Below are positions 2,556 to 50,053 of a stretch of 53,085 bases of DNA, one piece after another (position 1 is the first letter of the stretch; each line of letters opens with the position of its first letter). Under the pieces are notes generated by a model, which saw nothing but the letters and a program-made list of their open reading frames with translations, was not told where the DNA came from and made no database searches. Made by a program: the position numbers and the translations under genes. Source of the stretch: a virus. Taxonomy: Duplodnaviria; Caudoviricetes. The stretch lies in the IMG/VR virus record IMGVR_UViG_3300036790_000232, positions 1-53,085 of that record; one strand, written 5' to 3'.

Positions 2556-3383
2556 GTGACCGAGCACACCGACACCGCCGCCGTCGTCCGCGACCTCGCT
2601 TACACCGCCAGCGACCCGAGCGAGCTGGAGCCCGGCAAGGTCTACGGCTGGCTGACCAACGGCCAGGTCCACAAGATCGACCTCACCGCCGACGAGTACC
2701 GCGAGTACCCGCTGCGCAAGCGCGGCACCGTGACCGTGCGGAACGTCGCCAGCTTCGCCCACTACTACGCCAAGCACTCCAGCGGCTTCTCCGAGGTCTT
2801 CGCCGACCTCGACGCGGGCACGTTCACCGCCGTGCTGGACGCCCACGGCCCCGAGGGCGAGGACGTGGCATGGCAGCAGCACCGCCTCGTCCTCCAGCTC
2901 CAGCAGACGCTCCCGTGGCGCACCTGGCTCGCCAACGACCGGGCCATGATGCCCCAGCAGGCGTTCGCCGAGTTCCTCGAGGACAACGCCCGCGACGTCA
3001 CCGGCAAGCGCGTCACCGCCGCCGACCTGCTTGAGGTCGCCCAGCACTTCCAGGCGCACACCAAGGTCAACTTCACCCAGGGGCAGCGGCTCGCCACCGG
3101 CCAGACGCAGCTCACCTACGTGGAAGAGGTCGACGCCAAGGCAGGCCAGCGCGGCACGGTCGAGATCCCGGCCGAGTTCGACCTGGCCATCCTGCCCTAC
3201 GAGGACTGCGCGCCGAAGGTGATGGCCGCCCGCTTCCGCTACCGGCTGGCCAACGGGGAACTCAAGCTGGGCTATTTCCTTAACGACCCCGCCCGCACCG
3301 CACGGGAGGCGTGCGACGAGATCGCCGCCAAGCTCGCCGAGGCGTGCAGCGTCACCGTCATGCACGGCCAGCCGGCAAGGTAA
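2556..3383 (+). CDS. DUF2303 (YfdQ-like) family protein
   Basis: SFAHYY...FTAVLD.H...W..HR...Q..FAEFLEDN...F.LAI.PY...ARFRYR pattern. Confidence 0.8.
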   Translation: MTEHTDTAAVVRDLAYTASDPSELEPGKVYGWLTNGQVHKIDLTADEYREYPLRKRGTVTVRNVASFAHYYAKHSSGFSEVFADLDAGTFTAVLDAHGPEGEDVAWQQHRLVLQLQQTLPWRTWLANDRAMMPQQAFAEFLEDNARDVTGKRVTAADLLEVAQHFQAHTKVNFTQGQRLATGQTQLTYVEEVDAKAGQRGTVEIPAEFDLAILPYEDCAPKVMAARFRYRLANGELKLGYFLNDPARTAREACDEIAAKLAEACSVTVMHGQPAR

Positions 3384-3395
3384 CGAGGCCCCGCC

Positions 3396-3423
3396 AGGCG
3401 GCACGGCTCCGGCTGTGCCGCCT
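3396..3423 (+). terminator. GC-rich hairpin, possible intrinsic terminator
   Basis: AGGCGGCACGGC-TCCG-GCTGTGCCGCCT just after a stop codon. Confidence 0.5.
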
Positions 3424-3455
3424 TGCCCGTCCACGGGAGACAAGGAAATACGTGA

Positions 3456-4295
3456 ATGGCAGTGGGCGCGGCGAAATGGATATGGGAGAACTCGCGCGCC
3501 TCGAACGGCTCACTGATTGTGCTGCTTGCAATTGCCGATGAATGCGGAGAGGGGGAATTCACGGAGATGAGCGTGGCCCAGCTAATGGTCAAGTGCCGCC
3601 TTTCAGATAAGGGCGTGCGGCGTTCCGTCGAGGCCCTGGAAGCGCTCGGGGAGCTGTCCGTGGAGCCCCGGCCGGGCGGCATCAGCCGGTACGCGCCGAC
3701 GCTGACCCCGGTCATTTTGACCGGACCCACCCCGGTCATTTTGACCGGACCCCCGGCTGACCCCGGTCAAAATGACCGGACCCCTACCCCGGTCATTTTG
3801 ACCGGACCCCCGGAGGAACCGCAGGTCAACGGAACCCCGGTCAAAATGACCGGGGTGGAAATCTCCGACATTCTTTTGACTGTTACAGGTAGTTCTCTGG
3901 TGGAGGTTAAAGAGACGCCGGCAAAGCCGCCGACGTCTCCTGACCGCCCCGACGTCGAGCGACTCTGCACCCGCCTCGCCGACCGCGTCGAAGCCAACGG
4001 CAGCAAGCGCCCCGTTGTCAGCAGGAAATGGCGCGACGCCGCCCGGCTGCTAATCGACAAAGACGGGCGCACCGAGGAACAAGTTGCCGCATGCATCGAC
4101 TGGTGCCAGGCCGATGAATTCTGGCGCGGCAACGTCATGTCAATGCCGACCCTCAGAGAGAAATACGACCGGCTAAGGCTCGACGCGCTTCGCAAGCTGA
4201 AAGCCCAGAAGCGGAATTCACGCCAGCCCGACGAAGCCGATCAGCAAGAAGCACTAGAGATCGCCCGGAAGCTCGACGCCATGGAGGCAATGTGA
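3456..4295 (+). CDS. Phage replication initiator (N-terminal winged HTH, lambda O-like organisation)
   Basis: LIVLLAIAD...L..KCRLSDKGVRRS..ALE..GEL HTH; internal iterons; C-terminal W...DEFWRGNV.S...LREKYD.L. Confidence 0.85.
   Translation: MAVGAAKWIWENSRASNGSLIVLLAIADECGEGEFTEMSVAQLMVKCRLSDKGVRRSVEALEALGELSVEPRPGGISRYAPTLTPVILTGPTPVILTGPPADPGQNDRTPTPVILTGPPEEPQVNGTPVKMTGVEISDILLTVTGSSLVEVKETPAKPPTSPDRPDVERLCTRLADRVEANGSKRPVVSRKWRDAARLLIDKDGRTEEQVAACIDWCQADEFWRGNVMSMPTLREKYDRLRLDALRKLKAQKRNSRQPDEADQQEALEIARKLDAMEAM
3708..3853. repeat. Replication origin iterons: five 17-bp palindromic CCGGTCA(TTT/AAA)TGACCGG
   Basis: Copies start at 3708, 3732, 3763, 3789, 3837; followed by a lower-GC stretch. 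Confidence 0.85.
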
Positions 4296-4702
4296 CCCGC
4301 GAGGAATGCGTGAAGCTGGCCGCCTACGTCGGCGACCTGTGCCCGCAGCAGCGCATCGGCAAGGCGACCGGCCTCGTCTGGCACGACGTGCTCGGCCACC
4401 TGGACTACGCCGAGTGCCGCCAGGCCGCCGCACTGGTCGCCGGGCGTCAGCCGTTCGTCGCGCCGTCCGAGATCATCGCCGAGATCGCCGACGCCCGCAG
4501 CTCCGAGCAGCCGCACAGCGAAGCCTGCCGGGGCAGCGACTGCCGCAACTGCCGTTACCGCTGGTGCATGTGCGTCTGCCACCCGCGCGCCGTCCGGACA
4601 CTGGCAGGTCCCAGGCCGAAGCCGGCCGCACCTGAGCTGTCGGCCGGACCCAAGCGGTTCGACCCTGGCCAGCTCGCCATCGGCCGGTCACTTGACGAGT
4701 GA
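4292..4702 (+). CDS. Putative helicase loader/inhibitor-like protein with Cys-rich C-terminus
   Basis: Follows the initiator; MTREE...W..VL..LDY.EC..A...F..PSEI pattern. Confidence 0.6.
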   Translation: MTREECVKLAAYVGDLCPQQRIGKATGLVWHDVLGHLDYAECRQAAALVAGRQPFVAPSEIIAEIADARSSEQPHSEACRGSDCRNCRYRWCMCVCHPRAVRTLAGPRPKPAAPELSAGPKRFDPGQLAIGRSLDE

Positions 4703-10019: not shown

Positions 10020-10248
10020 GCCGCAGCGGCGCGACGAGCCCCGCCACCTCGACGCCGCGATCGTCCCGGTTGAGCGGGCACTACGAGCGCGGGCGCATGA
10101 ACTGTCGTCCGGCGCGATGCAGGCGTTCGCAATTCTCGGACCCGAGCGCGAGGACGGCACAGTCGACCCGGCGCGGATCGAGCCGAACCTCAAGCTGATG
10201 CTGGCCGCCGAGCTCCGTGCCCTCGCCGACGAGCTGGCGCACTGGTGA
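10009..10248 (+). CDS. Hypothetical protein
   Basis: AAGGAG RBS. Confidence 0.6.
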   Translation: MAREPQRRDEPRHLDAAIVPVERALRARAHELSSGAMQAFAILGPEREDGTVDPARIEPNLKLMLAAELRALADELAHW

Positions 10249-10396
10249 CCGCCGGCCAGCTCCGGGCCGCCGTGGAGGCCCACAGGCCGTCAGACGGCAG
10301 CCTGTCGTGGTACGTGGACGAGTTCGTCATCGACTGCGACGCCGGGGAGTTCTGGGCCGTGATCGCCCGCGCCCTGGCCGACGACCCGGAGCGCCG

Positions 10397-10645
10397 GTGA
10401 GCGGCAGGCCCGACCCGGACGACGACGCCGAGGTCATCCGCCGCGAACGCGAGTACTACACCGCCATGCTCCGCGAGATACCGGGTGAGCGCGCCAGGCT
10501 CGGCCAGCGCGAGCGCGACCTGGTGCGCTACGCGCGGCTGCTCGGCATCGGGTGGGACGACATCGCCGAGGCGATCGGCCATGAGGACAACATCACCGTG
10601 CAAGAGAAGTACGGCGAGCCTGAGCCCGGCGCAGAGCCGTTCTGA
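10397..10645 (+). CDS. Small HTH-like protein
   Basis: LVRYARLLGIGWDDIAEAIG motif common in actinobacterial HTH-like proteins. Confidence 0.6.
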   Translation: MSGRPDPDDDAEVIRREREYYTAMLREIPGERARLGQRERDLVRYARLLGIGWDDIAEAIGHEDNITVQEKYGEPEPGAEPF

Positions 10646-10657
10646 GGAGGCAGCCGG

Positions 10658-10930
10658 ATGCAGTGCAAGGACATCCCCGACGAGCGCGTCGTCGAACTGG
10701 CGCGGCGCTGGCAGGACTACGCGCGCAGCCACCCGATCGCCTGGCCCTCCTGGCAGCACCTGCACGACCAGGACCGGCCGCCCGGCGTCGTCCAGGCCCT
10801 GATGGACGAGTACGGCATCCCGTACAAGCTCGCCTACGTCAAGGTCGAGAGCCTGTGCGAGCGGAAGAACGGCAAGCCCGCGCTGCTCGAGTACGGCACG
10901 TCGCCCAACTACGCGTGGCCGGCCAGCTGA
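10658..10930 (+). CDS. Hypothetical phage protein
   Basis: GAGGAGG RBS; MQCKDIPD...LEYGTS...W. Confidence 0.65.
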   Translation: MQCKDIPDERVVELARRWQDYARSHPIAWPSWQHLHDQDRPPGVVQALMDEYGIPYKLAYVKVESLCERKNGKPALLEYGTSPNYAWPAS

Positions 10931-10931
10931 G

Positions 10932-11267
10932 ATGCCCTGGGAGAAGACGGCCGCCGACCGAAAAGCGGAGAACGCGTTCTATAACGACCCGGTCTATAAA
11001 CGCAACAAGGTCATCGTCCTGCGCCAGGCCGGCGGGCGCTGCAGCGACTGCGGCCACAGGCACCAGCGGCTCCAAGTCGACCACGGCATCCCGCGGGCAC
11101 AGGGCGGCGGCCACGAGCTGGCCAACCTGTCCGCCAAGTGCTCCGGCGACGGATCTTGCAAGTGCCACGAGAAGAAGACCGCGACCGAGGGCCGTGGCTA
11201 CCGCAACCCGGCCAGCCGCACCACTACAGCGCGTGACCCGAAGCCGAAGCCACGGACGAGATGGTGA
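10932..11267 (+). CDS. HNH endonuclease (packaging-associated type)
   Basis: CSDC...VDH.IP..QGG.H..ANL...C...CH..KT; sits next to the packaging region. Confidence 0.9.
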   Translation: MPWEKTAADRKAENAFYNDPVYKRNKVIVLRQAGGRCSDCGHRHQRLQVDHGIPRAQGGGHELANLSAKCSGDGSCKCHEKKTATEGRGYRNPASRTTTARDPKPKPRTRW

Positions 11268-11620
11268 CACGGTGAGCGACATGATCAAACATCGACGGAC
11301 CTCACTGCATAACTATACATACACGCACGTCACATACACGGAGGTGGATGTGGCGCGTCGTAACGCGGAAGTCCAGCGGGCTCCGGCGACAGAGCCCAGC
11401 CTGCCCCTAGATCCCCCTCCCCACCCCTAAAACTTCGCCAAAATGTCACTTTCCGTCACCATAGACAGTAATCAATGCATGACTATGCAGTGACATCCGT
11501 CAATGTCGACGATCGTGAATGTTGTATCGCGTGTTTGGATTGTCCGTCGTGAATGTGGACGTTAAGCGACTGAAATCGAGGGGAGGCCGTCCTTGCCGGG
11601 ACGGAATAGCTTCAATACGG

Positions 11621-11648
11621 CACGGCATATATACCGTGATGATATGGT
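11621..11648 (+). promoter_or_regulatory. Putative operator palindrome and -10 box of the RAMP cassette
   Basis: CACGG-CATATATA-CCGTG at 11621-11638; TATGGT (TANNNT) at 11643-11648, 6 nt before the first repeat unit. Confidence 0.45.
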
Positions 11649-11654
11649 GTCTAT

Positions 11655-11738
11655 TGCACGGCTGAGCGTGGCCGAGCATGGCGCGGTTTGGCAGGGCTAG
11701 GTGCGGCCCGGCAGCGCGAGGCAACGACCCCCGAAGGG
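11655..11738 (+). ncRNA. GGY-NN pentamer array 1 (putative guide RNA) with terminal hairpin
   Basis: 14 five-nt units from TGC-AC to GGC-AA, then CGACCCCCGAAGGG. Confidence 0.8.
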
Positions 11739-11745
11739 ATCCACC

Positions 11746-12330
11746 ATGGACTTTCGTGTAACTCTCACAGGCACGAGCGCGCTGATCATGAACAACGCGC
11801 GCATGGCCAACCCGCTCGACCCCGCGACCAAGGCGTACAAGGCGGTCAGCGGGAAGCGGAGCAAGACCGAGCAAGACCTTGAAGGCGTTTTCCGGCTCGG
11901 CCACGCAGGGGCGATGTACCACGACGGCGACGTTGGCCCGTACTTGCCGGCCGACAACATATGGAAATCGCTGCAGGAGGGGGCCAAGAAGCACCGTCTC
12001 GGGCAGAAGGTGACCGAGGGCGTGATCATCCTGACGGACGTCAACCCGATCGCCTACAAGGGGCCGCGTGACATCCCTGGCCTGTGGTCCGACGAGAACT
12101 TCCGGTTCATGTCGATGCGCGTGACCGGCACCGGCTCGCAGCGTAAGCGCGTCCCGTTCTGCCGGCCGGTGTTCCGTGAGTGGCACACCGACTGCACGGG
12201 GACGCTTGACGACTCGATCATTGACCTGGATGAGTTCCGGTTGATCGCCGAGACTGCAGGCTCACGGGTCGGCGTTTGCGACTGGCGCCCTCGCTACGGC
12301 CGGTTCTCGGCGGTCGTTGAGGCGGCCTGA
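11746..12330 (+). CDS. Stand-alone Cas7/RAMP-fold protein (Vipr-like)
   Basis: 194 aa; N-terminal strand FRVTLTGTSALIMN, GPYLPADNIWKSL helix motif, RPVF.EW, Gly-rich C-terminal loop AGSRVGVCDWRPRYGRF. Confidence 0.75.
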   Translation: MDFRVTLTGTSALIMNNARMANPLDPATKAYKAVSGKRSKTEQDLEGVFRLGHAGAMYHDGDVGPYLPADNIWKSLQEGAKKHRLGQKVTEGVIILTDVNPIAYKGPRDIPGLWSDENFRFMSMRVTGTGSQRKRVPFCRPVFREWHTDCTGTLDDSIIDLDEFRLIAETAGSRVGVCDWRPRYGRFSAVVEAA

Positions 12331-12869
12331 TGTCGCCGTTCACCCCGAAGGGTGACCGTGCACGCTGGCGGGCGGTCTACGATCTGCTGCGCGGTTCTGC
12401 CGTGGGGGACGTGATCACGTACGAGCAGATCGGCGAAGCGCTCGACCTGGACCCGGAGGACGACCGCCACCGTATCCAGATGGCGGTACGGCGGGCCGCG
12501 AAAGAGCACGAGGAACAGGACAGGCGCGCGATCGAGGTCGTGCCCAACAGCGGGTACCGCATCGTGGAGGCACCTGAGCACCTGCGGCTGGCGCGCAAGC
12601 AGCAGAAGAAGTCATCGCGGGCGCTGGTGCGCGGGCACTCGAAGGTGACCCACGTGGACCTGTCCGGCATGGACCCGGACACGCGGCACGCCTTCGAGGT
12701 GGTAGCGCGGGCGTTCACGATGCAGATGGAATTCAACAAGCGGTTCGACGTCCGGCAGGAACGTATCGAGAACGCGGTCAGCGAGATGACCGAGCGGACC
12801 GAGCGGACCGAGCAGGAGATAGCCGACCTGAAGGCCAGGCTTGCCCGGCTGGAAGGCGAGCAGACCTAG
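12330..12869 (+). CDS. Winged-helix plus coiled-coil accessory protein
   Basis: GDVITYEQIGEAL...V...GYRIV wHTH pattern; C-terminal heptads; TGATG coupling to the RAMP gene. Confidence 0.75.
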   Translation: MSPFTPKGDRARWRAVYDLLRGSAVGDVITYEQIGEALDLDPEDDRHRIQMAVRRAAKEHEEQDRRAIEVVPNSGYRIVEAPEHLRLARKQQKKSSRALVRGHSKVTHVDLSGMDPDTRHAFEVVARAFTMQMEFNKRFDVRQERIENAVSEMTERTERTEQEIADLKARLARLEGEQT

Positions 12870-12952
12870 CAGGGCACGGCACGGCAGGGCTGGGCTTAGC
12901 CCGGCTTGGCGCGGCAGCGCGTGGCTAGGCAAGGCAACGGCCTCCGTAGAGG
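12868..12952 (+). ncRNA. GGY-NN pentamer array 2 with terminal hairpin
   Basis: 14 units from AGC-AG to GGC-AA, then CGG-CCTC-CGTA-GAGG. Confidence 0.8.
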
Positions 12953-12957
12953 TGGCA

Positions 12958-12997
12958 GGGTGACCGGCAGTCATCCCGGTTCGAGACCGGGGCACCC
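12958..12997 (+). ncRNA. tRNA-like minihelix (acceptor-like stem plus T-arm) between arrays 2 and 3
   Basis: GGGTG...CCCGG-TTCGAGA-CCGGG-G-CACCC. Confidence 0.65.
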
Positions 12998-12998
12998 G

Positions 12999-13083
12999 CG
13001 CAAGGCTGGGCATGGCTGGGCCGGCCCCGGCTGGGCGCGGCCTGGCGCGGCATGGCGTGGCACGGCAACGACCCCCGAAGGGG
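12999..13083 (+). ncRNA. GGY-NN pentamer array 3 with terminal hairpin
   Basis: 14 units from CGC-AA to GGC-AA, then CGACCCCCGAAGGGG. Confidence 0.8.
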
Positions 13084-13088
13084 AGAGC

Positions 13089-13331
13089 ATGACAACGACC
13101 ACCGTCACCACCGTCCGCTGTGACCAGTGCGGCAAGACCGTGCCGAAGGAACAGCGTGACGGGTGGCTGTTCCTGAACGTCATGAGCAAGGAAGCCCACA
13201 GGAGCAGGGTCGACTTGACCATCGCTGGACTTCGCTGGCCGGCCGCGCTCTCGTCTGACCTGTGCTCATGGGAGTGCGTCCGCGACTACGCGGCCCTCCA
13301 GTTGCTTGACCCGACACCTGAGCAGCCGTAA
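13089..13331 (+). CDS. Small Cys-containing (zinc-finger-like) protein
   Basis: CDQC...CSWEC; GAAGGGGAG RBS inside the array 3 hairpin. Confidence 0.65.
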   Translation: MTTTTVTTVRCDQCGKTVPKEQRDGWLFLNVMSKEAHRSRVDLTIAGLRWPAALSSDLCSWECVRDYAALQLLDPTPEQP

Positions 13332-14954
13332 CGCGACGATCATCCGTATCCGTGCCCGCTTCACCGCGGGGATCGTGAGCGCGAGCTTGACCGCGCCCGC
13401 CGCTGCGTAGGCGGCGTCCACGTGGCCCTCGTGCTTGCGGGTGAACCGCCAGCCGTCGCCGCTGCTGAGCTTGCTGGCGGCGCGGACGTGAGCGTCTAGC
13501 AGCGGGTCCGCGGGGTGCACGACGCGCAGCGCGCGGGCCAGGTCGGCCAGTTCCTGGCATGCCTCGGTGACCCTGGCGCCCGTGATGGCGCCGTCCTCGG
13601 GCACGTCGCCGGGCTCCCGCTTGCCGCCAGGCCGCCTGTTGTACCGCAGGGCGAGCGGCCGCAGGGTGGTGGCGATGCCCGCGGCGGGCCCGGACGGGTA
13701 CCAGCCGAACGCCGCGGGCTTGATCTCGGCGAGCAGCGCGGGCAGTTCGGCGCGCACGGCGTCGGTGCTGTCCCATGCGGCGGCGATCTCGACGCGCGGC
13801 CTGCCGTCGGCGAGGGTGGCGGAGACGGCGAGGGTGGCGTGCTTCCCGTCCGGCGCGACGTCGAGGCACGCGGCGATGCGCCCGCGGTGGGCGTCCATGG
13901 TGCCGGCGGGGTCGGCGCAGTTGTCCCATGAGGCGTGGTCGATGGCGGCGTCGAGGTTGGCGACACGCTGGCAGAGCACTTCCGTCCTGAATATCTCGGG
14001 CGGGTCCTCGCCGAGCGATGACCGGACCGCGGCTTCGCCGATGCCGTCGGCGTAGCCGAGGGCGGGGTTGGCCTGCGCCCAGGCTTCCTCGTCGTCCAGC
14101 TCGCAGCCGTCGGGGGCGCTGTACTCGATGAGGCAGAGCGCGGGGTTGGTGCCGGCCCGCCCGGCGGCCTGGAGCTGGTTGAGGACGACAGAGGTGTCGT
14201 CGCCGGCGTTGGACATCGCCCAGAGCTGGCCGTTGCGGCGGGCCATGGTGGTCTTGGACAGTGACCCCCAGGCCTTCCAGTCCTTCTGGGTGCGCAGCTC
14301 GTCGATGTTGACTTCGTCGTTGCTGCCGCCGCGGCCGGCCTTGTCGTTGGTGGCCTTGATGGCGTAGCACCCGGTTCCTGCCCAGAACATCTCGTCGCCG
14401 TTGACGTTCCGGACGTCAATCCACTCTTCTTGCAGGTCGGGGCAGGCGTGGATGGTTTCCTGGCACATCTGCCACTGCTTGCGGGCGAGGGAGAGATCCT
14501 GGGCGGCGCCGACGATGTCACGGGCGCCGTCCATGTACATGCGCCAGAGGGTGACGATCCGCTTGAGGTGGCTCTTGCCGTTCTGGCGGGCGACGATGAT
14601 CAGGACGGTGCGGAAGCGGTAGCTGCCGTCGGGGTTGAGCTCGAGCGCGTGGATGACGGCCCATCGCTGCCAGGGCAGGAGGGGCTGGCCGATCATCTCG
14701 GCGAAGTCGATGACCTCGTAGCCGCGGGTGGTCTTGCGGTTGAGCGGCCGCAGCGGCCTGGTCCACAGGCGCGGCTCGGTGCGCCCTAGGAGCTTGCGGC
14801 CGGGCCCGCGCCTGGCGGGGTCCTGCGGGCTGCCGGGCTTGTGGTCGGGGCAGCGCTTGCGGCCGGGGGCGGCGAGCTTGCGGCAGCCGGCGAAGCTGCA
14901 GCGCTTACGCGCTGCGCGCGTCGCGGAGCTTCGCGAGTCCGTTTGGCTTGGCAT
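13266..14954 (-). CDS. terL: Terminase large subunit
   Basis: LLPWQRW, Walker A VARQNGKS, Walker B VNIDELR, SNAG coupling motif, QANPALG, C-terminal VDAAYA nuclease motif. Confidence 0.95.
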   Translation of the reverse strand: MPSQTDSRSSATRAARKRCSFAGCRKLAAPGRKRCPDHKPGSPQDPARRGPGRKLLGRTEPRLWTRPLRPLNRKTTRGYEVIDFAEMIGQPLLPWQRWAVIHALELNPDGSYRFRTVLIIVARQNGKSHLKRIVTLWRMYMDGARDIVGAAQDLSLARKQWQMCQETIHACPDLQEEWIDVRNVNGDEMFWAGTGCYAIKATNDKAGRGGSNDEVNIDELRTQKDWKAWGSLSKTTMARRNGQLWAMSNAGDDTSVVLNQLQAAGRAGTNPALCLIEYSAPDGCELDDEEAWAQANPALGYADGIGEAAVRSSLGEDPPEIFRTEVLCQRVANLDAAIDHASWDNCADPAGTMDAHRGRIAACLDVAPDGKHATLAVSATLADGRPRVEIAAAWDSTDAVRAELPALLAEIKPAAFGWYPSGPAAGIATTLRPLALRYNRRPGGKREPGDVPEDGAITGARVTEACQELADLARALRVVHPADPLLDAHVRAASKLSSGDGWRFTRKHEGHVDAAYAAAGAVKLALTIPAVKRARIRMIVALRLLRCRVKQLEGRVVADALP

Positions 14955-15228
14955 CGGCAGGCTTGGTCTTCTTCATGGCGGCGCGCGCCGCGGGCGTCGC
15001 GCCGAGCTCGGCGAGGACCTTGAGCAGCTCGGGGCCTAGCCACCTGATGGCGGCGGCGTAGGCCTTGCCGGGCGGGGCCTCGTCGATGGTGCGGGCGTAC
15101 TGGAGTGCGAGCTTGGCGGCCGCGGCGTCCTGGCCGTCGGGGTCGAGCTTGAGGACGGCGACCGTCTGGCTGACGGCGGGCCAGAGCTGCTGGCTCACCT
15201 CTCGCAGCACCGTCATTGTCGGCTCCAT
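14905..15228 (-). CDS. terS: Terminase small subunit
   Basis: LA..YARTID...LGPELLKVLAELGATPAARA motif, directly upstream of terL. Confidence 0.85.
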   Translation of the reverse strand: MEPTMTVLREVSQQLWPAVSQTVAVLKLDPDGQDAAAAKLALQYARTIDEAPPGKAYAAAIRWLGPELLKVLAELGATPAARAAMKKTKPADAKPNGLAKLRDARSA

Positions 15229-46716: not shown

Positions 46717-46934
46717 GTGCACATGCAGTGCACATGAGTAATACCTAATAGTACCGGATAAGAAACAATAAGAATTAATAGTTTCGCAGACCAGATAAGG
46801 CGAATCGAAAACGCGGGCCTCTGGCCTGCACCGGCTCAATCCCGCTCCCTATTACCGGGTCAAGTGCTGCTACACCACCCTGGCCAGCGGTGACGTCCGG
46901 TTACCCGCTTCCGGTTGCACAGACCGTGCACATG
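46717..46934. other. Putative attP region with arm-type repeats
   Basis: GTGCACATG at 46717, 46728, 46926 and a variant at 46915, flanking an AT-rich stretch at the integrase 3' end. Confidence 0.65.
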
Positions 46935-48231
46935 CACCGAGGAAAGCGGCCGACGCCGCGCGGCCCGCGTCCTCGCCGTCGTGGTCGTCCGGCATCAGGT
47001 GAAGGTAGGCCTGCGTCACCATCTCGACCGTGTCGCCCAGCCACGCCGCGGCCCGCACGACGTCGATGCCCCCGCGCAGCCACGCCGACGCGGCGGTGTG
47101 CCGCGTCCGGTGGATGCCGTAGCCCCGCGCCAGCGCCCGGCGCCCGCCCAGCACCTGCGGCGCCCGCCAGCGGCTCACCCCGGTACGCCACGCCGCGTCC
47201 ATGACGTTCCTGCCGGCGGCCGTCCCGTCCTCGTGCGACAGCACCAGGCGCACCGTGACCAGCGTGCCGTGGAGCTTCGACCCCGGCTCGTGCCACGGCA
47301 GCGTCACCGCCAGCGGCGGGAACCGCTCCGCGTGCGCGTCGATCCGCTCGACCAGCTCGGGCGGCACGGGCACGTCGTGCGGCTTCTTGTTCTTCACCGG
47401 CCCGAAGCGCAGCTCCCCGCCGATTTCCTTGAGCTGGCGCGTGACGCGGACCTTCGGCTTCTTCCCGCGGACGATGTCGTCGGCACCCAGGCCGGCCATC
47501 TCCATCTCGCGCATGCCGGTGCCCGCGCCCAGGTAGGGGACGAGCCCGAAGCGCTCCGGCATGCACGCGGCGATCCCCGCCACCTCGGCCGGCGCGTATG
47601 GCTGCGCCTCGCCGCCGCCCTTCCCCGGCCGGTCCACCGCCTTCGACTTGACTGGGTCGCGGCCGACGATCCCGTCCTCGGCCGCGGCCTGGAAGACGGC
47701 TGAGACGTCGCCCATCACCAGGCGCCTGGAGCTGTCGGCCAGCGGCATCGCGGCGGCCCACGCGGCGACGATGCTCGGGCGCGCGGCGAGCAGCCCCATC
47801 GGGTACTGGCCGATCGCCGCGCCGCCCTTGGGTGTCTTCCCGCTGCCCGGCTCGCCCTCGTAGACGTGGCAGCGCAGGCGCGCCTCCAGCCCGGCCGCGG
47901 CCGACTCGCCGTGCTTGCGCGACTTGCGCCACTGCTCGGCGTACGCCCGCAGCGTCACCTCCCCTGCGTCGGGGTCGGTGTAGGTGCGGGTGTCGATCTC
48001 CCGCCGGATCTTGACGTCGAACGCCTCGGCGTGGAGCTCGGGGTTCTTGCCCTCCCTGAGGGCGAAGTTCCTTGCCTTCTGCTTCCCGGTGACCGGGTCG
48101 CGCCAGCGGACCTGCCAGCGGTCACCGCGCTGGTGGTCCCTGCCGGGGTAGAGCTTGTTGCGCCCGCGCCCGCAGTGGCACGGCTGGCCGCCGTCCCGCT
48201 GGTCGCGGTGCCACCTGTCGTAGACGGCCAT
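46870..48231 (-). CDS. int: Tyrosine integrase
   Basis: TGMR..E..GL, HRTRHT.AS, A.WLGD, AY.H motifs; RWQVRWRDP arm-binding domain. Confidence 0.95.
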   Translation of the reverse strand: MAVYDRWHRDQRDGGQPCHCGRGRNKLYPGRDHQRGDRWQVRWRDPVTGKQKARNFALREGKNPELHAEAFDVKIRREIDTRTYTDPDAGEVTLRAYAEQWRKSRKHGESAAAGLEARLRCHVYEGEPGSGKTPKGGAAIGQYPMGLLAARPSIVAAWAAAMPLADSSRRLVMGDVSAVFQAAAEDGIVGRDPVKSKAVDRPGKGGGEAQPYAPAEVAGIAACMPERFGLVPYLGAGTGMREMEMAGLGADDIVRGKKPKVRVTRQLKEIGGELRFGPVKNKKPHDVPVPPELVERIDAHAERFPPLAVTLPWHEPGSKLHGTLVTVRLVLSHEDGTAAGRNVMDAAWRTGVSRWRAPQVLGGRRALARGYGIHRTRHTAASAWLRGGIDVVRAAAWLGDTVEMVTQAYLHLMPDDHDGEDAGRAASAAFLGACARSVQPEAGNRTSPLARVV

Positions 48232-49743: not shown

Positions 49744-49946
49744 TGGCCGCCGTCCGGCACCTGACCGAGGCGGAGTTCGCCGAGCGCGAGGGCGTCGACG
49801 AGGAGACCGCCAAGAAGTGGCGGAAGAACGGCACCGGGCCGCGGTACCTCCAGCTCACCAAGAGCGCGACCAAGGGCACCGTCCGCTACCGCGAGGCCGA
49901 CGTCGAGGCGTGGGAGCTAGAGCGCCTCGTCCCCGCCACCGCCTAG
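49743..49946 (+). CDS. Excisionase/AlpA-like HTH protein
   Basis: LTE.EFA...GV...T...WR..G.GP.Y...VRY...DVEAW. Confidence 0.85.
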   Translation: MAAVRHLTEAEFAEREGVDEETAKKWRKNGTGPRYLQLTKSATKGTVRYREADVEAWELERLVPATA

Positions 49947-50053
49947 AACGCGGCAGCCCCCGGTGCACGGGGGCCGCCAGCAGTGGCAGCCGCTAGCTGC
50001 CAGCCCGGCGGGAGAACGCCACGCCGGTCACATCAAGGTAACAGGAGAACGCA

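What the first reader, a model, noticed from the sequence alone, without database searches (positions are those of the whole stretch)
11620..13331. Phage-encoded RNA-guided system candidate: lone Cas7/RAMP-like protein with three GGY-NN pentamer arrays
Seen in sequence: a compact cassette between the HNH gene and terL, ordered promoter, array 1, RAMP-like gene, wHTH/coiled-coil gene, array 2, tRNA-like element, array 3, small Cys protein. Each array has exactly 14 five-nt units. 33 of 42 units begin GGY and 41 of 42 begin NGY, while the two following bases vary between units and arrays. I found no CRISPR array, cas1/2, cas3, cas5 or cas6 in the genome. Established: Cas7-type RAMPs polymerise along a guide RNA with a fixed step per subunit. 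Inference: one subunit binds each GGY and the NN bases are exposed as a discontinuous guide, giving three different guides. With no nuclease in the cassette, silencing is more likely than cutting. This matches my recollection of recently reported VIPR-type systems, which should be verified against the literature.
Basis: partly seen in the sequence, partly recalled or inferred. Interest (0 to 1): 0.97.

Follow-up and report, generated by a model that had tools for sequence, protein, structure and literature searches.

The report
Phage VIPR guide-RNA silencing system
A soil actinophage carries a complete VIPR system, the CRISPR-like viral RNA-guided DNA silencer first described in 2026, so it is real but of a known kind; two of its guide RNAs are separated by a small tRNA-shaped element that may let host tRNA enzymes cut them apart.

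Summary
There are three arrays of 14 five-base units (11655-11724, 12868-12937, 12999-13068), with 33/42 GGY and 41/42 NGY. They are the only such places in the 53-kb genome, and all lie on the + strand.

ORF 11746-12330 matches the solved SUSP1 Vipr protein (PDB 36pp, E 2.5e-25), and its model folds like Cas7/Csm3/Cmr4. The next gene is a vap1-like winged-helix/coiled-coil protein. Of 128 related loci, 101 carry GGY-NN arrays on the vipr strand. VIPR was described in 2026 bioRxiv preprints, so this is a new member of a known kind, type II-like.

Additional findings:
- The element at 12950-13002 is a tRNA-like minihelix with strong covariation. It recurs 108 times, always on the vipr strand and next to arrays, in actinobacterial-type VIPR loci. 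It is absent from the Felixounavirus-type (SUSP1-like) loci. 'tRNA' does not occur in the main text of the three core VIPR preprints.
- The cassette is missing from the closest relative phage.
- No target was found for any guide.

This scan noted tRNA-like spacers in VIPR arrays before, on other DNA.

The parts
11620..11654 (+). AT-rich leader with inverted repeat CACGG(11621-11625)/CCGTG(11634-11638) and -10-like TGATATGGT (11640-11648). It is a possible promoter placing the start at the first unit of vr1.
   Evidence: Read from the sequence. It was not called by the sigma-70 consensus scan. The TANNNT -10 consensus of actinobacteria is recalled, not tested.
11655..11738 (+). vrRNA 1: 14 GGY-NN units (11655-11724), CGACC, and hairpin tail CCC-CGAA-GGG (11729-11738). 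The tail overlaps the Shine-Dalgarno region of vipr (ATG 11746).
11746..12330 (+). vipr gene, 194 aa, a RAMP/Cas7-like protein.
   Evidence: PDB 36pp_D 'SUSP1 Vipr protein', E 2.5e-25, residues 5-191 vs 6-189. phrog_4652 E 5.5e-43. AF2 pLDDT 91.4. Foldseek top hits are Cmr4/Csm3/type VII Cas7 at probability 1.0.
12330..12869 (+). vap1-like accessory gene, 179 aa: N-terminal winged helix followed by long coiled-coil helices.
   Evidence: AF2 pLDDT 90.3 with topology H-E-H-H-E-E then helices 81-107 and 116-178. Foldseek gave only weak hits, all to winged-helix regulators, E 0.008-0.09. 36% identity, E 2e-27, to MakoManhole gp77 'DNA binding protein'. 24% identity, E 0.002, to the Felixounavirus ORF after vipr. 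A homologue lies downstream of vipr in 57 of 131 loci.
12868..12953 (+). vrRNA 2: 14 units (12868-12937; the first unit overlaps the vap stop codon) and hairpin tail GCCUC-CGUA-GAGGU (12940-12953).
12950..13002 (+). tRNA-like element (TLE): a 5-bp acceptor-like stem (12958-12962 with 12993-12997), conserved GG (12966-12967), and a T arm (12974-12979 with 12987-12992, loop TTCGAGA). It has no anticodon arm.
   Evidence: Covariance model R1 gives 52.8 bits, E 4.9e-9. Covariation was measured on 36 copies.
12999..13083 (+). vrRNA 3: 14 units (12999-13068), CGACC, and hairpin tail CCCC-CGAA-GGGG (13072-13083). The tail overlaps the ribosome-binding region of the next ORF.
13089..13331 (+). Small Cys protein, 80 aa (CxxC ... 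CxxxC). It lies inside the variable segment but is not a conserved VIPR part.
   Evidence: GC3 is 0.84. There are 16 proteins at E<=1e-3 (the query itself among them) in 1.84 billion representatives. It is found in 0 of 131 VIPR loci.
10083..13332 (.). Variable accessory segment holding a small ORF, HNH, the VIPR cassette and the small Cys gene. It has no nucleotide match in the closest relative contig L132, which is otherwise collinear.
   Evidence: blastn of the window against L132. ORFs of L132 at the site are two HNH-like genes, with no vipr, vap or arrays.

Best explanation
The cassette is a complete, probably active, type II-like VIPR system carried as an accessory module by a temperate soil actinophage.

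Shown here:
- The protein is a Vipr homologue with a Cas7-like fold.
- The contact residues named in the cryo-EM paper are kept.
- Three vrRNA genes of 14 GGY-NN units, each with a hairpin tail, lie on the same strand.
- A vap1-like winged-helix gene follows vipr.

Inferred from the published homologues:
- The region is transcribed rightwards.
- One Vipr protomer binds each GGY-NN unit.
- The NN dinucleotides form a gapped guide that pairs with double-stranded DNA while skipping every third base.
- The filament represses transcription of a rival mobile element, because no nuclease belongs to the cassette.

My own inference concerns the tRNA-like element between vr2 and vr3. I read it as a processing signal. 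Host RNase P would cut at its 5' side, making the 3' end of vr2. A tRNA 3' end enzyme would cut after its acceptor stem, making the 5' end of vr3. The role would match that of the hammerhead ribozymes reported in other VIPR types.
For: Protein:
- phmmer against PDB sequences gives one hit, 36pp_D 'SUSP1 Vipr protein', E 2.5e-25 over nearly the full length.
- In that printed alignment, SUSP1 K33, R138, D177, W178 and R179 align to identical K32, R140, D179, W180 and R181. H17 aligns to N16. These are the contacts named in 10.64898/2026.04.26.720927. Five of the six positions are invariant or nearly so in 35 homologues; the sixth, N16, alternates N/H in the patterns drawn from that alignment.
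- The AF2 model has pLDDT 91.4. Foldseek gave 67 PDB matches at E<=0.001, the top ones Cmr4, Csm3 and type VII Cas7.

Arrays:
- They are unique in the genome and strand-specific.
- 101 of 128 related loci have arrays on the vipr strand, against 2 on the other strand. All 5 named phage homologues examined have them.
- The closest Vipr relative, L129 (72% identity), has the same layout with different NN after the first 4 units of vr2. Its tail hairpins covary: CCCC/GGGG, CCTC/GAGG, CCAC/GTGG.

vap.

No self-target: the best match in the phage's own genome is 18/28 under the 1-nt skip rule, no better than under other skip rules. The paper's self-targeting control gave the same result.

TLE:
- 11 pairs, 9 of them with compensatory changes.
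- 96.2% of cells are paired against 67.1% in shuffles. The covariation score is 0.739 against 0.168, and 0 of 500 shuffles reach it. Slid controls give at most 0.187.
- There are 108 matches in 132 sources, all on the vipr strand.
- 100 of 104 matches abut an array, and 68 have arrays on both sides. The background is 25 of 520.
- In the window the TLE sits only where two vrRNAs are adjacent.
Against: - There is no evidence of transcription, of RNA binding, or of any target for this locus.
- No DNA match to any of the three guides was found.
- 9 of 42 units are not GGY.
- The promoter is not called by the consensus scan.
- Single-sequence folding of the tails and the TLE is no better than shuffles, with z from -0.01 to +1.10.
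- The 36 TLE copies used for the alignment were picked by the word GGTTCGA, so the invariance of the T loop is by selection.
- The model's first 10 columns include vrRNA tail sequence, which may favour matches next to arrays.
- Cleavage by RNase P or RNase Z is untested.
- The VIPR type cannot be assigned formally, because the paper's tree and tables are in supplements I could not open.
Confidence: 0.9

Rival explanations
1. The tRNA-like element is not a cutting signal. It is the structured 3' cap of the vrRNA upstream of it, the counterpart of the SUSP1 pseudoknot tail, and it nucleates or stops the Vipr filament.
For: 88 of 104 copies have an array directly upstream. In many related loci the element follows the last repeat after only a few bases. 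The cryo-EM paper describes a 3' pseudoknot that caps the RNA, with the protomers next to it resolved first.
Against: In the window, vr1 and vr3 have the same hairpin tail as vr2 but no TLE, so the hairpin is the tail proper. 12 of 104 copies precede an array without following one; in MakoManhole one sits upstream of the first array. The features kept (acceptor stem stacked on the T stem, T loop, GG) are those that tRNA-processing enzymes read. That last point is established knowledge, recalled here.
Confidence: 0.25
2. The system is present but no longer works: a decaying module with degenerate repeats, or guides without living targets.
For: 9 of 42 units depart from GGY. No target was found. 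The cassette is absent from the nearest relative.
Against: The vipr and vap frames are intact, with coding-type GC3 of 0.86 and 0.88. All named contact residues are kept. The paper itself notes frequent internal degeneracy of vrRNAs. The target searches were narrow.
Confidence: 0.08
3. The pentamer arrays act as DNA, as binding sites for the winged-helix protein, and are not transcribed guides.
For: A DNA-binding protein is encoded beside them. A 5-bp period is about half a helical turn.
Against: Strand bias is 101 loci against 2. The tRNA-like elements are also strand-specific and show RNA-type covariation including G-U pairs. Homologous arrays are shown to be transcribed and to co-purify with Vipr in SUSP1 and P. 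fulva (10.64898/2026.04.26.720920, Results).
Confidence: 0.02
4. The guides are aimed at the host chromosome (host takeover, or decoy-type sites) rather than at rival phages or satellites.
For: No viral target was found in IMG/VR. The October 2026 preprint reports vrRNAs that redirect VIPR to host decoy sites (abstract only).
Against: No match was found in 306 bacterial genomes for vr2. Published natural targets of phage-borne type II systems are mostly satellites and prophages.
Confidence: 0.1

Closest known systems
Type II VIPR systems (Escherichia phage SUSP1; Pseudomonas fulva prophage), bioRxiv 10.64898/2026.04.26.720920 and 10.64898/2026.04.26.720927
   Same: A homologous Vipr protein (E 2.5e-25 to the solved SUSP1 chain). 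vipr is followed by a small DNA-binding vap gene. One vrRNA lies upstream and more lie downstream. The units are GGY-NN (14 here; 9-16 reported). There is a structured 3' tail. The system is phage-borne, with no nuclease and no CRISPR array.
   Different: Only about 34% protein identity. The host is a high-GC actinobacterium. The tail is a 4-5-bp hairpin that overlaps a ribosome-binding site, not a roughly 40-nt pseudoknot. A tRNA-like element lies between adjacent vrRNAs; no Felixounavirus-type locus gave a match. Targets are unknown.
Hammerhead ribozyme-interspersed vrRNA arrays of VIPR types I and V (same preprint, Results and legend of fig. S19)
   Same: A structured RNA placed between adjacent vrRNAs, at the place where they must be separated.
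   Different: A ribozyme cuts itself. The element here has no hammerhead core and no Rfam match. It looks like a substrate for host tRNA-processing enzymes.
Cas7-family backbone subunits of class 1 CRISPR effectors (Csm3, Cmr4, type VII Cas7)
   Same: RRM/RAMP fold with a glycine-rich loop and thumb (Foldseek probability 1.0, TM 0.44-0.54). They polymerise along a guide RNA.
   Different: 7-14% identity. The genome has no CRISPR array, no other cas genes and no adaptation genes. The step is five bases with a gapped guide, against six bases with a contiguous spacer.
tRNA-punctuated transcripts: mitochondrial tRNA punctuation and engineered polycistronic tRNA-gRNA arrays for CRISPR multiplexing (recalled, no paper read here)
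   Same: tRNA-shaped units between functional RNAs, so that RNase P and RNase Z release the pieces.
   Different: The element here lacks an anticodon arm and a D stem, and neither ARAGORN nor the Rfam tRNA model calls it. Cleavage is untested.

Membership tests
VIPR system | Vipr protein: a stand-alone RAMP homologue with RRM core, G-loop and thumb | tested here: met
   Sequence match to PDB 36pp_D SUSP1 Vipr, E 2.5e-25. The G-loop motif GVCDWRPRYGRF aligns to GVGDWRPRFGRF. AF2 pLDDT is 91.4, and Foldseek gives Cas7-family hits at probability 1.0.
VIPR system | Residues that read G1, G2, Y3 and the skipped base (SUSP1 H17, D177, R138, W178, R179, K33) | tested here: met
   By the alignment these map to N16, D179, R140, W180, R181 and K32. 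Five are identical, with H replaced by N. The family alternates N/H at that site (patterns).
VIPR system | vrRNA genes: tandem YNNGG/GGY-NN repeats (at least 4, typically 9-16) beside vipr on its strand | tested here: met
   Three arrays of 14 units, 33/42 GGY, unique in the genome and on the + strand only.
VIPR system | GGY conserved while NN is hypervariable among relatives | tested here: met
   101 of 128 loci have arrays with other NN. The 72% relative L129 differs in NN after 4 shared units.
VIPR system | Conserved structured 3' tail after the repeats | tested here: met
   GGCAA-CGRCC plus a hairpin in all 3 copies and in 2 copies of L129, with two compensatory stem variants. The folding energy alone is not significant.
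VIPR system | Minimal locus: vipr plus a vap gene, no CRISPR array and no other cas genes | tested here: met
   No Cas family in Pfam or PHROGs scans of 61 and 67 ORFs. No CRISPR-like repeat in TRF.
VIPR system | vrRNAs are transcribed and co-purify with Vipr | not testable with these tools
   This needs RNA from the host or from an expression strain.
VIPR system | Natural DNA targets that match NN under the 1-nt skip rule (at least 80% NN) | tested here: inconclusive
   0 matches: vr2 in 306 genomes at up to 3 mismatches; 10-unit cores of all three guides, exact, in IMG/VR. The best match in about 0.97 Mb of fetched loci is 20/28, equal to the other skip rules.
VIPR type II (SUSP1 / P. fulva type) | Place in the Vipr tree, vap1 accessory gene, upstream plus downstream vrRNAs | tested here: inconclusive
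   The layout fits. vap resembles the Felixounavirus vap only weakly (24% identity, E 0.002).
CRISPR-Cas class 1 (type III-like) | CRISPR repeat-spacer array and further cas genes (Cas10/Cas5/Cas6, Cas1-Cas2) | tested here: not met
   None found in the genome.
tRNA gene | Cloverleaf with anticodon arm; called by ARAGORN or Rfam RF00005 | tested here: not met
   ARAGORN makes no call at 12950-13002. No tRNA match at E<=10 in 11400-13400, nor at E<=1 in four related loci. Only the acceptor stem, GG and T arm are present.

The most novel reading that the evidence does not exclude
In the actinobacterial branch of VIPR, guide RNAs are matured by the host's tRNA-processing enzymes. A conserved anticodon-less tRNA mimic between guides would be cut by RNase P and a 3' tRNase. 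This would be a natural counterpart of engineered tRNA-guide arrays, and a third route of vrRNA biogenesis beside single transcripts and hammerhead ribozymes.

In addition, the tail of the upstream guide doubles as the ribosome-binding region of vipr. The Vipr filament on vr1 could therefore throttle its own translation.
Probability: 0.45. Interest if true: 0.65.

Novelty: new member of a known kind. Interest (0 to 1): 0.5.

Why it matters
VIPR is a newly described class of RNA-guided DNA binders, proposed as the ancestor of CRISPR effectors. The published experiments are on Escherichia and Pseudomonas elements. This locus shows the same machinery, with its contact residues intact, in a temperate phage of high-GC soil actinobacteria, carried as a swappable accessory module beside the packaging genes.

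The tRNA-like separator, if it is a processing signal, bears on how vrRNAs get their ends, which the preprint texts I could read do not cover for this branch. It could also give a compact natural design for multiplexed guide expression. None of this changes the class: the system itself is already in print.

Tried and rejected
**Target search, nothing found**
- The full 28-base gapped vr2 pattern at up to 3 mismatches gave 0 of 5 genomes and 0 of 301 genomes sampled from the order of a Streptosporangium genome. vr1 and vr3 were not run on genomes.
- Ten-unit cores (units 4-13) of vr2, vr1 and vr3, exact, in IMG/VR gave 0 matches each.
- Own genome: the best match is 18/28 under the 1-nt skip rule, against 17-18 under skip rules 0 and 2.
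- 174 guides taken from related loci were scanned against all loci. Hits at or above 80% NN numbered 25, 55 and 22 for skips 0, 1 and 2. The excess comes from two low-complexity guides, so nothing can be claimed.

**Expression:** no RNA holder listed. The single run that holds the stretch is a soil-metagenome DNA run that may be the source of the window.

**Relatives**
- megablast of 10900-15000 against phages gave no match.
- A single-protein scan of viral contigs found nothing.
- The metagenome scan gave only one close relative.

**Antisense idea from an earlier scan note:** the inner loop of the TLE has no other match in this genome at up to 2 mismatches. Rejected for this locus.

**HNH as a VIPR nuclease:** rejected. 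The relative L132 keeps the HNH gene without any VIPR.

**Small Cys protein as a VIPR part:** rejected (0 of 131 loci).

**Other**
- Foldseek for vap gave no match at E<=0.001.
They may hold type tables, accession lists and figures that show tRNA-like elements or this clade.
Full report
**What is there**

The window is a whole 53,085-bp virus record with 70% G+C. The only public run that holds it is a soil-metagenome DNA run.

In the finding's span, three stretches stand in a strict five-base register:
- 11655-11724
- 12868-12937
- 12999-13068

Each has 14 units of the form NGYNN and ends in GGCAA-CGRCC plus a short hairpin.

I scored every 14-unit window on both strands. Only these three places reach 8 or more GGY, all on the + strand, and the minus strand never exceeds 7. 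The arrays are therefore real, unique in the genome and strand-specific.

**The protein**

- ORF 11746-12330 has no Pfam match. It belongs to phrog_4652 of unknown function, E 5.5e-43.
- Against the sequences of all PDB chains it has a single match: 36pp_D, 'SUSP1 Vipr protein', E 2.5e-25, residues 5-191 against 6-189.
- An AlphaFold2 model built on 35 homologues has mean pLDDT 91.4.
- Foldseek against the PDB gives 67 matches at E<=0.001. The best are Cmr4, Csm3 and type VII Cas7 backbone subunits, at probability 1.0, TM 0.44-0.54 and 7-14% identity. That structural library ends on 8 April 2026 and evidently lacks the Vipr entries.
- In the alignment, the residues that the cryo-EM preprint names as reading G1, G2, Y3 and the skipped target base are SUSP1 H17, D177, R138, W178, R179 and K33. 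They align to N16, D179, R140, W180, R181 and K32 here.

**The literature**

VIPR is in print as preprints.
- 10.64898/2026.04.26.720920: outline, all of Results, three Methods sections and term searches read. It defines the system, the 1-nt skip rule, seven types, and array variants including staggered and hammerhead-interspersed arrays.
- 10.64898/2026.04.26.720927: outline, two Results sections and a term search read. It gives the filament structure.
- 10.64898/2026.10.15.759431: outline and abstract, plus a term search. It shows competition between phage and satellite.
- 10.64898/2026.10.21.760802: passages only. It recovers VIPR arrays from a language model.

The system is of a known kind.

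**Relatives**

- tblastn finds the protein in 130 phage records. Most are Felixounavirus-type coliphages at about 34% identity. Actinophages are also hit: Gordonia MakoManhole 50%, Mycobacterium LittleE 41%, Gordonia Trine 37% and prophiBWHA-1 37%.
- All five named loci that I opened carry GGY-NN arrays on the vipr strand.
- Using an alignment of homologues I fetched 43 loci from bacterial genomes and 80 from IMG/VR. Of loci L001-L128, 101 have arrays on the vipr strand and 2 on the other strand. Several records occur in two collections, for example L011/L067, L002/L082 and L003/L085, so these are not 128 independent loci.
- The closest Vipr relative found is L129, 72% identical, on a 2,085-bp metagenome contig. 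It has the same order of parts, different NN after the first four units of vr2, and tails whose hairpin stems covary.

**The accessory gene**

- ORF 12330-12869 is 36% identical (E 2e-27) to MakoManhole gp77, annotated 'DNA binding protein'.
- It is weakly similar (24% identity, E 0.002) to the ORF that follows vipr in a Felixounavirus.
- A homologue lies downstream of vipr in 57 of 131 loci.
- Its model (pLDDT 90.3) has a winged-helix topology followed by two long helices.
- Foldseek gives only weak matches (E 0.008-0.09), all to winged-helix regulators.

'wHTH/coiled-coil' is therefore reasonable but rests on weak structural matches.

**The tRNA-like element**

Between the vr2 tail and vr3 lies GGGTG...GG...CCCGG-TTCGAGA-CCGGG-CACCC. 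ARAGORN and Rfam do not call it.

- The word GGTTCGA recurs beside arrays in many related loci.
- Thirty-six copies align to a 5-bp acceptor-like stem stacked on a 6-bp T stem with a 7-base T loop, plus an invariant GG that was not part of my selection.
- RNAalifold finds 11 pairs, 9 of them with compensatory changes.
- On that alignment 96.2% of cells pair, against 67.1% in shuffles. The covariation score is 0.739 against 0.168, and 0 of 500 shuffles reach it. Slid controls reach at most 0.187.
- A covariance model finds 104 matches in the window plus L001-L099, and 4 more in L100-L131. All 108 are on the vipr strand, in 47 of 132 sources.
- No Felixounavirus-type locus has one. L129 has one at the same place.
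- Of the first 104 matches, 100 abut an array within 55 bases and 68 have arrays on both sides. The background is 25 of 520 random windows.
- Rfam has no family for it in four related loci either.
- 'tRNA' occurs 0 times in the main text of the three core VIPR preprints, and 'tRNA-like' 0 times in the fourth. Figures and supplements could not be seen.

Caveats:
- The T loop is invariant by my selection.
- The model includes some tail columns.
- Single-sequence folding energies are not better than shuffles.

I read the element as a punctuation mark for RNase P and a 3' tRNase. The rival reading is that it is a 3' cap.

**Context**

- The phage is temperate and siphovirus-like. It has an integrase (46870-48231, -), an excisionase-like gene, a tape measure, a major tail protein, a portal and a major head protein. 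terS is at 14905-15228 (-).
- Its closest relative contig is L132, with TerL 92% identical. L132 is collinear from window position 4699 to 25207, except that 10083-13332 has no counterpart.
- At that site L132 has two HNH-like genes and no vipr, vap, small Cys gene or arrays. None of 14 TerL-related loci has them.
- The cassette is thus a swappable accessory module, and the HNH gene is not part of it.
- The small Cys ORF looks coding, with GC3 0.84, and belongs to a small family: 16 proteins at E<=1e-3, the query itself among them. It accompanies vipr in 0 of 131 loci.
- A host hint comes from a TerL 74% identical in a Streptosporangiaceae MAG.

**Targets**

Applying the published rule (GGY replaced by n) I found no self-target and no target elsewhere. 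The searches were narrow: exact cores only in IMG/VR, and one guide only in 306 genomes. This leaves the target open.

**Earlier notes of this scan**

After I had found the element, a look-up showed that the scan had already noted tRNA-like spacers in a VIPR array of another actinophage (e1-6055562). It had also noted a tRNA-shaped antisense RNA in another VIPR array (e1-5946192). My results agree with the first. I tested the antisense idea here and it did not hold.

**Verdict**

This is a genuine, complete VIPR system and a new member of a known kind. The tRNA-like separator and the overlap of the tail with a ribosome-binding site are the features worth a bench test.

Noticed in passing
window 11725-11748 and 13069-13091: The same vrRNA tail (CGACCCCCGAAGGG) sits 8-10 bases before the ATG of vipr and again before the ATG of the small Cys gene. 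The tail hairpin therefore contains the Shine-Dalgarno-like purines. In many related loci the upstream array also ends about 20-25 bases before vipr. Vipr binding could thus be coupled to translation.
   Followed up: partly
window 13266-13331 (both strands): terS and terL lie on the minus strand, opposite to the portal and the other structural genes. The terL frame runs 19 codons past the stop seen in the 92% relative L132, into the 3' end of the small Cys gene. Homology to L132 stops at 13333.
   Followed up: partly
L003 (Gordonia phage Trine, MH271318) 3077-3360: The annotated CDS 40 (locus 3091-3894) covers two GGY-NN arrays and three tRNA-like elements. Its 5' part is probably non-coding vrRNA DNA and therefore misannotated.
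   Followed up: no
window 3701-3813: Four tandem copies of a roughly 26-nt unit (ACCCCGGTCATTTTGACCGGACCCC), each an inverted repeat around TTTT/AAAA. This could be an operator or origin-like cluster.
   Followed up: no
window 11289-11556: The intergenic region upstream of the cassette holds a 32-nt inverted repeat (11289-11320 / 11475-11506, 78% complementary) and two exact copies of TCGTGAATGT 34 bases apart.
   Followed up: no
window 22817-22899 (-) and 49929-50014 (-): ARAGORN calls a tRNA-Gly inside a + strand ORF (22277-23038). It also calls a tRNA with an undetermined anticodon beside the excisionase/integrase region. The first is probably a false call. The second might relate to the attachment site.
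   Followed up: no
after the acceptor stem of the tRNA-like elements (window 12998-13002): The bases that follow the acceptor-like stem are conserved as RCGCA: ACGCA in 30 of 104 copies, and one C invariant in the 36 aligned copies. There is no CCA. All three window vrRNAs begin NGCAN. The reason is unknown.
   Followed up: no
L132 11753-12848: At the site where the window has the VIPR cassette, the closest relative carries two HNH-like genes in tandem.
   Followed up: no
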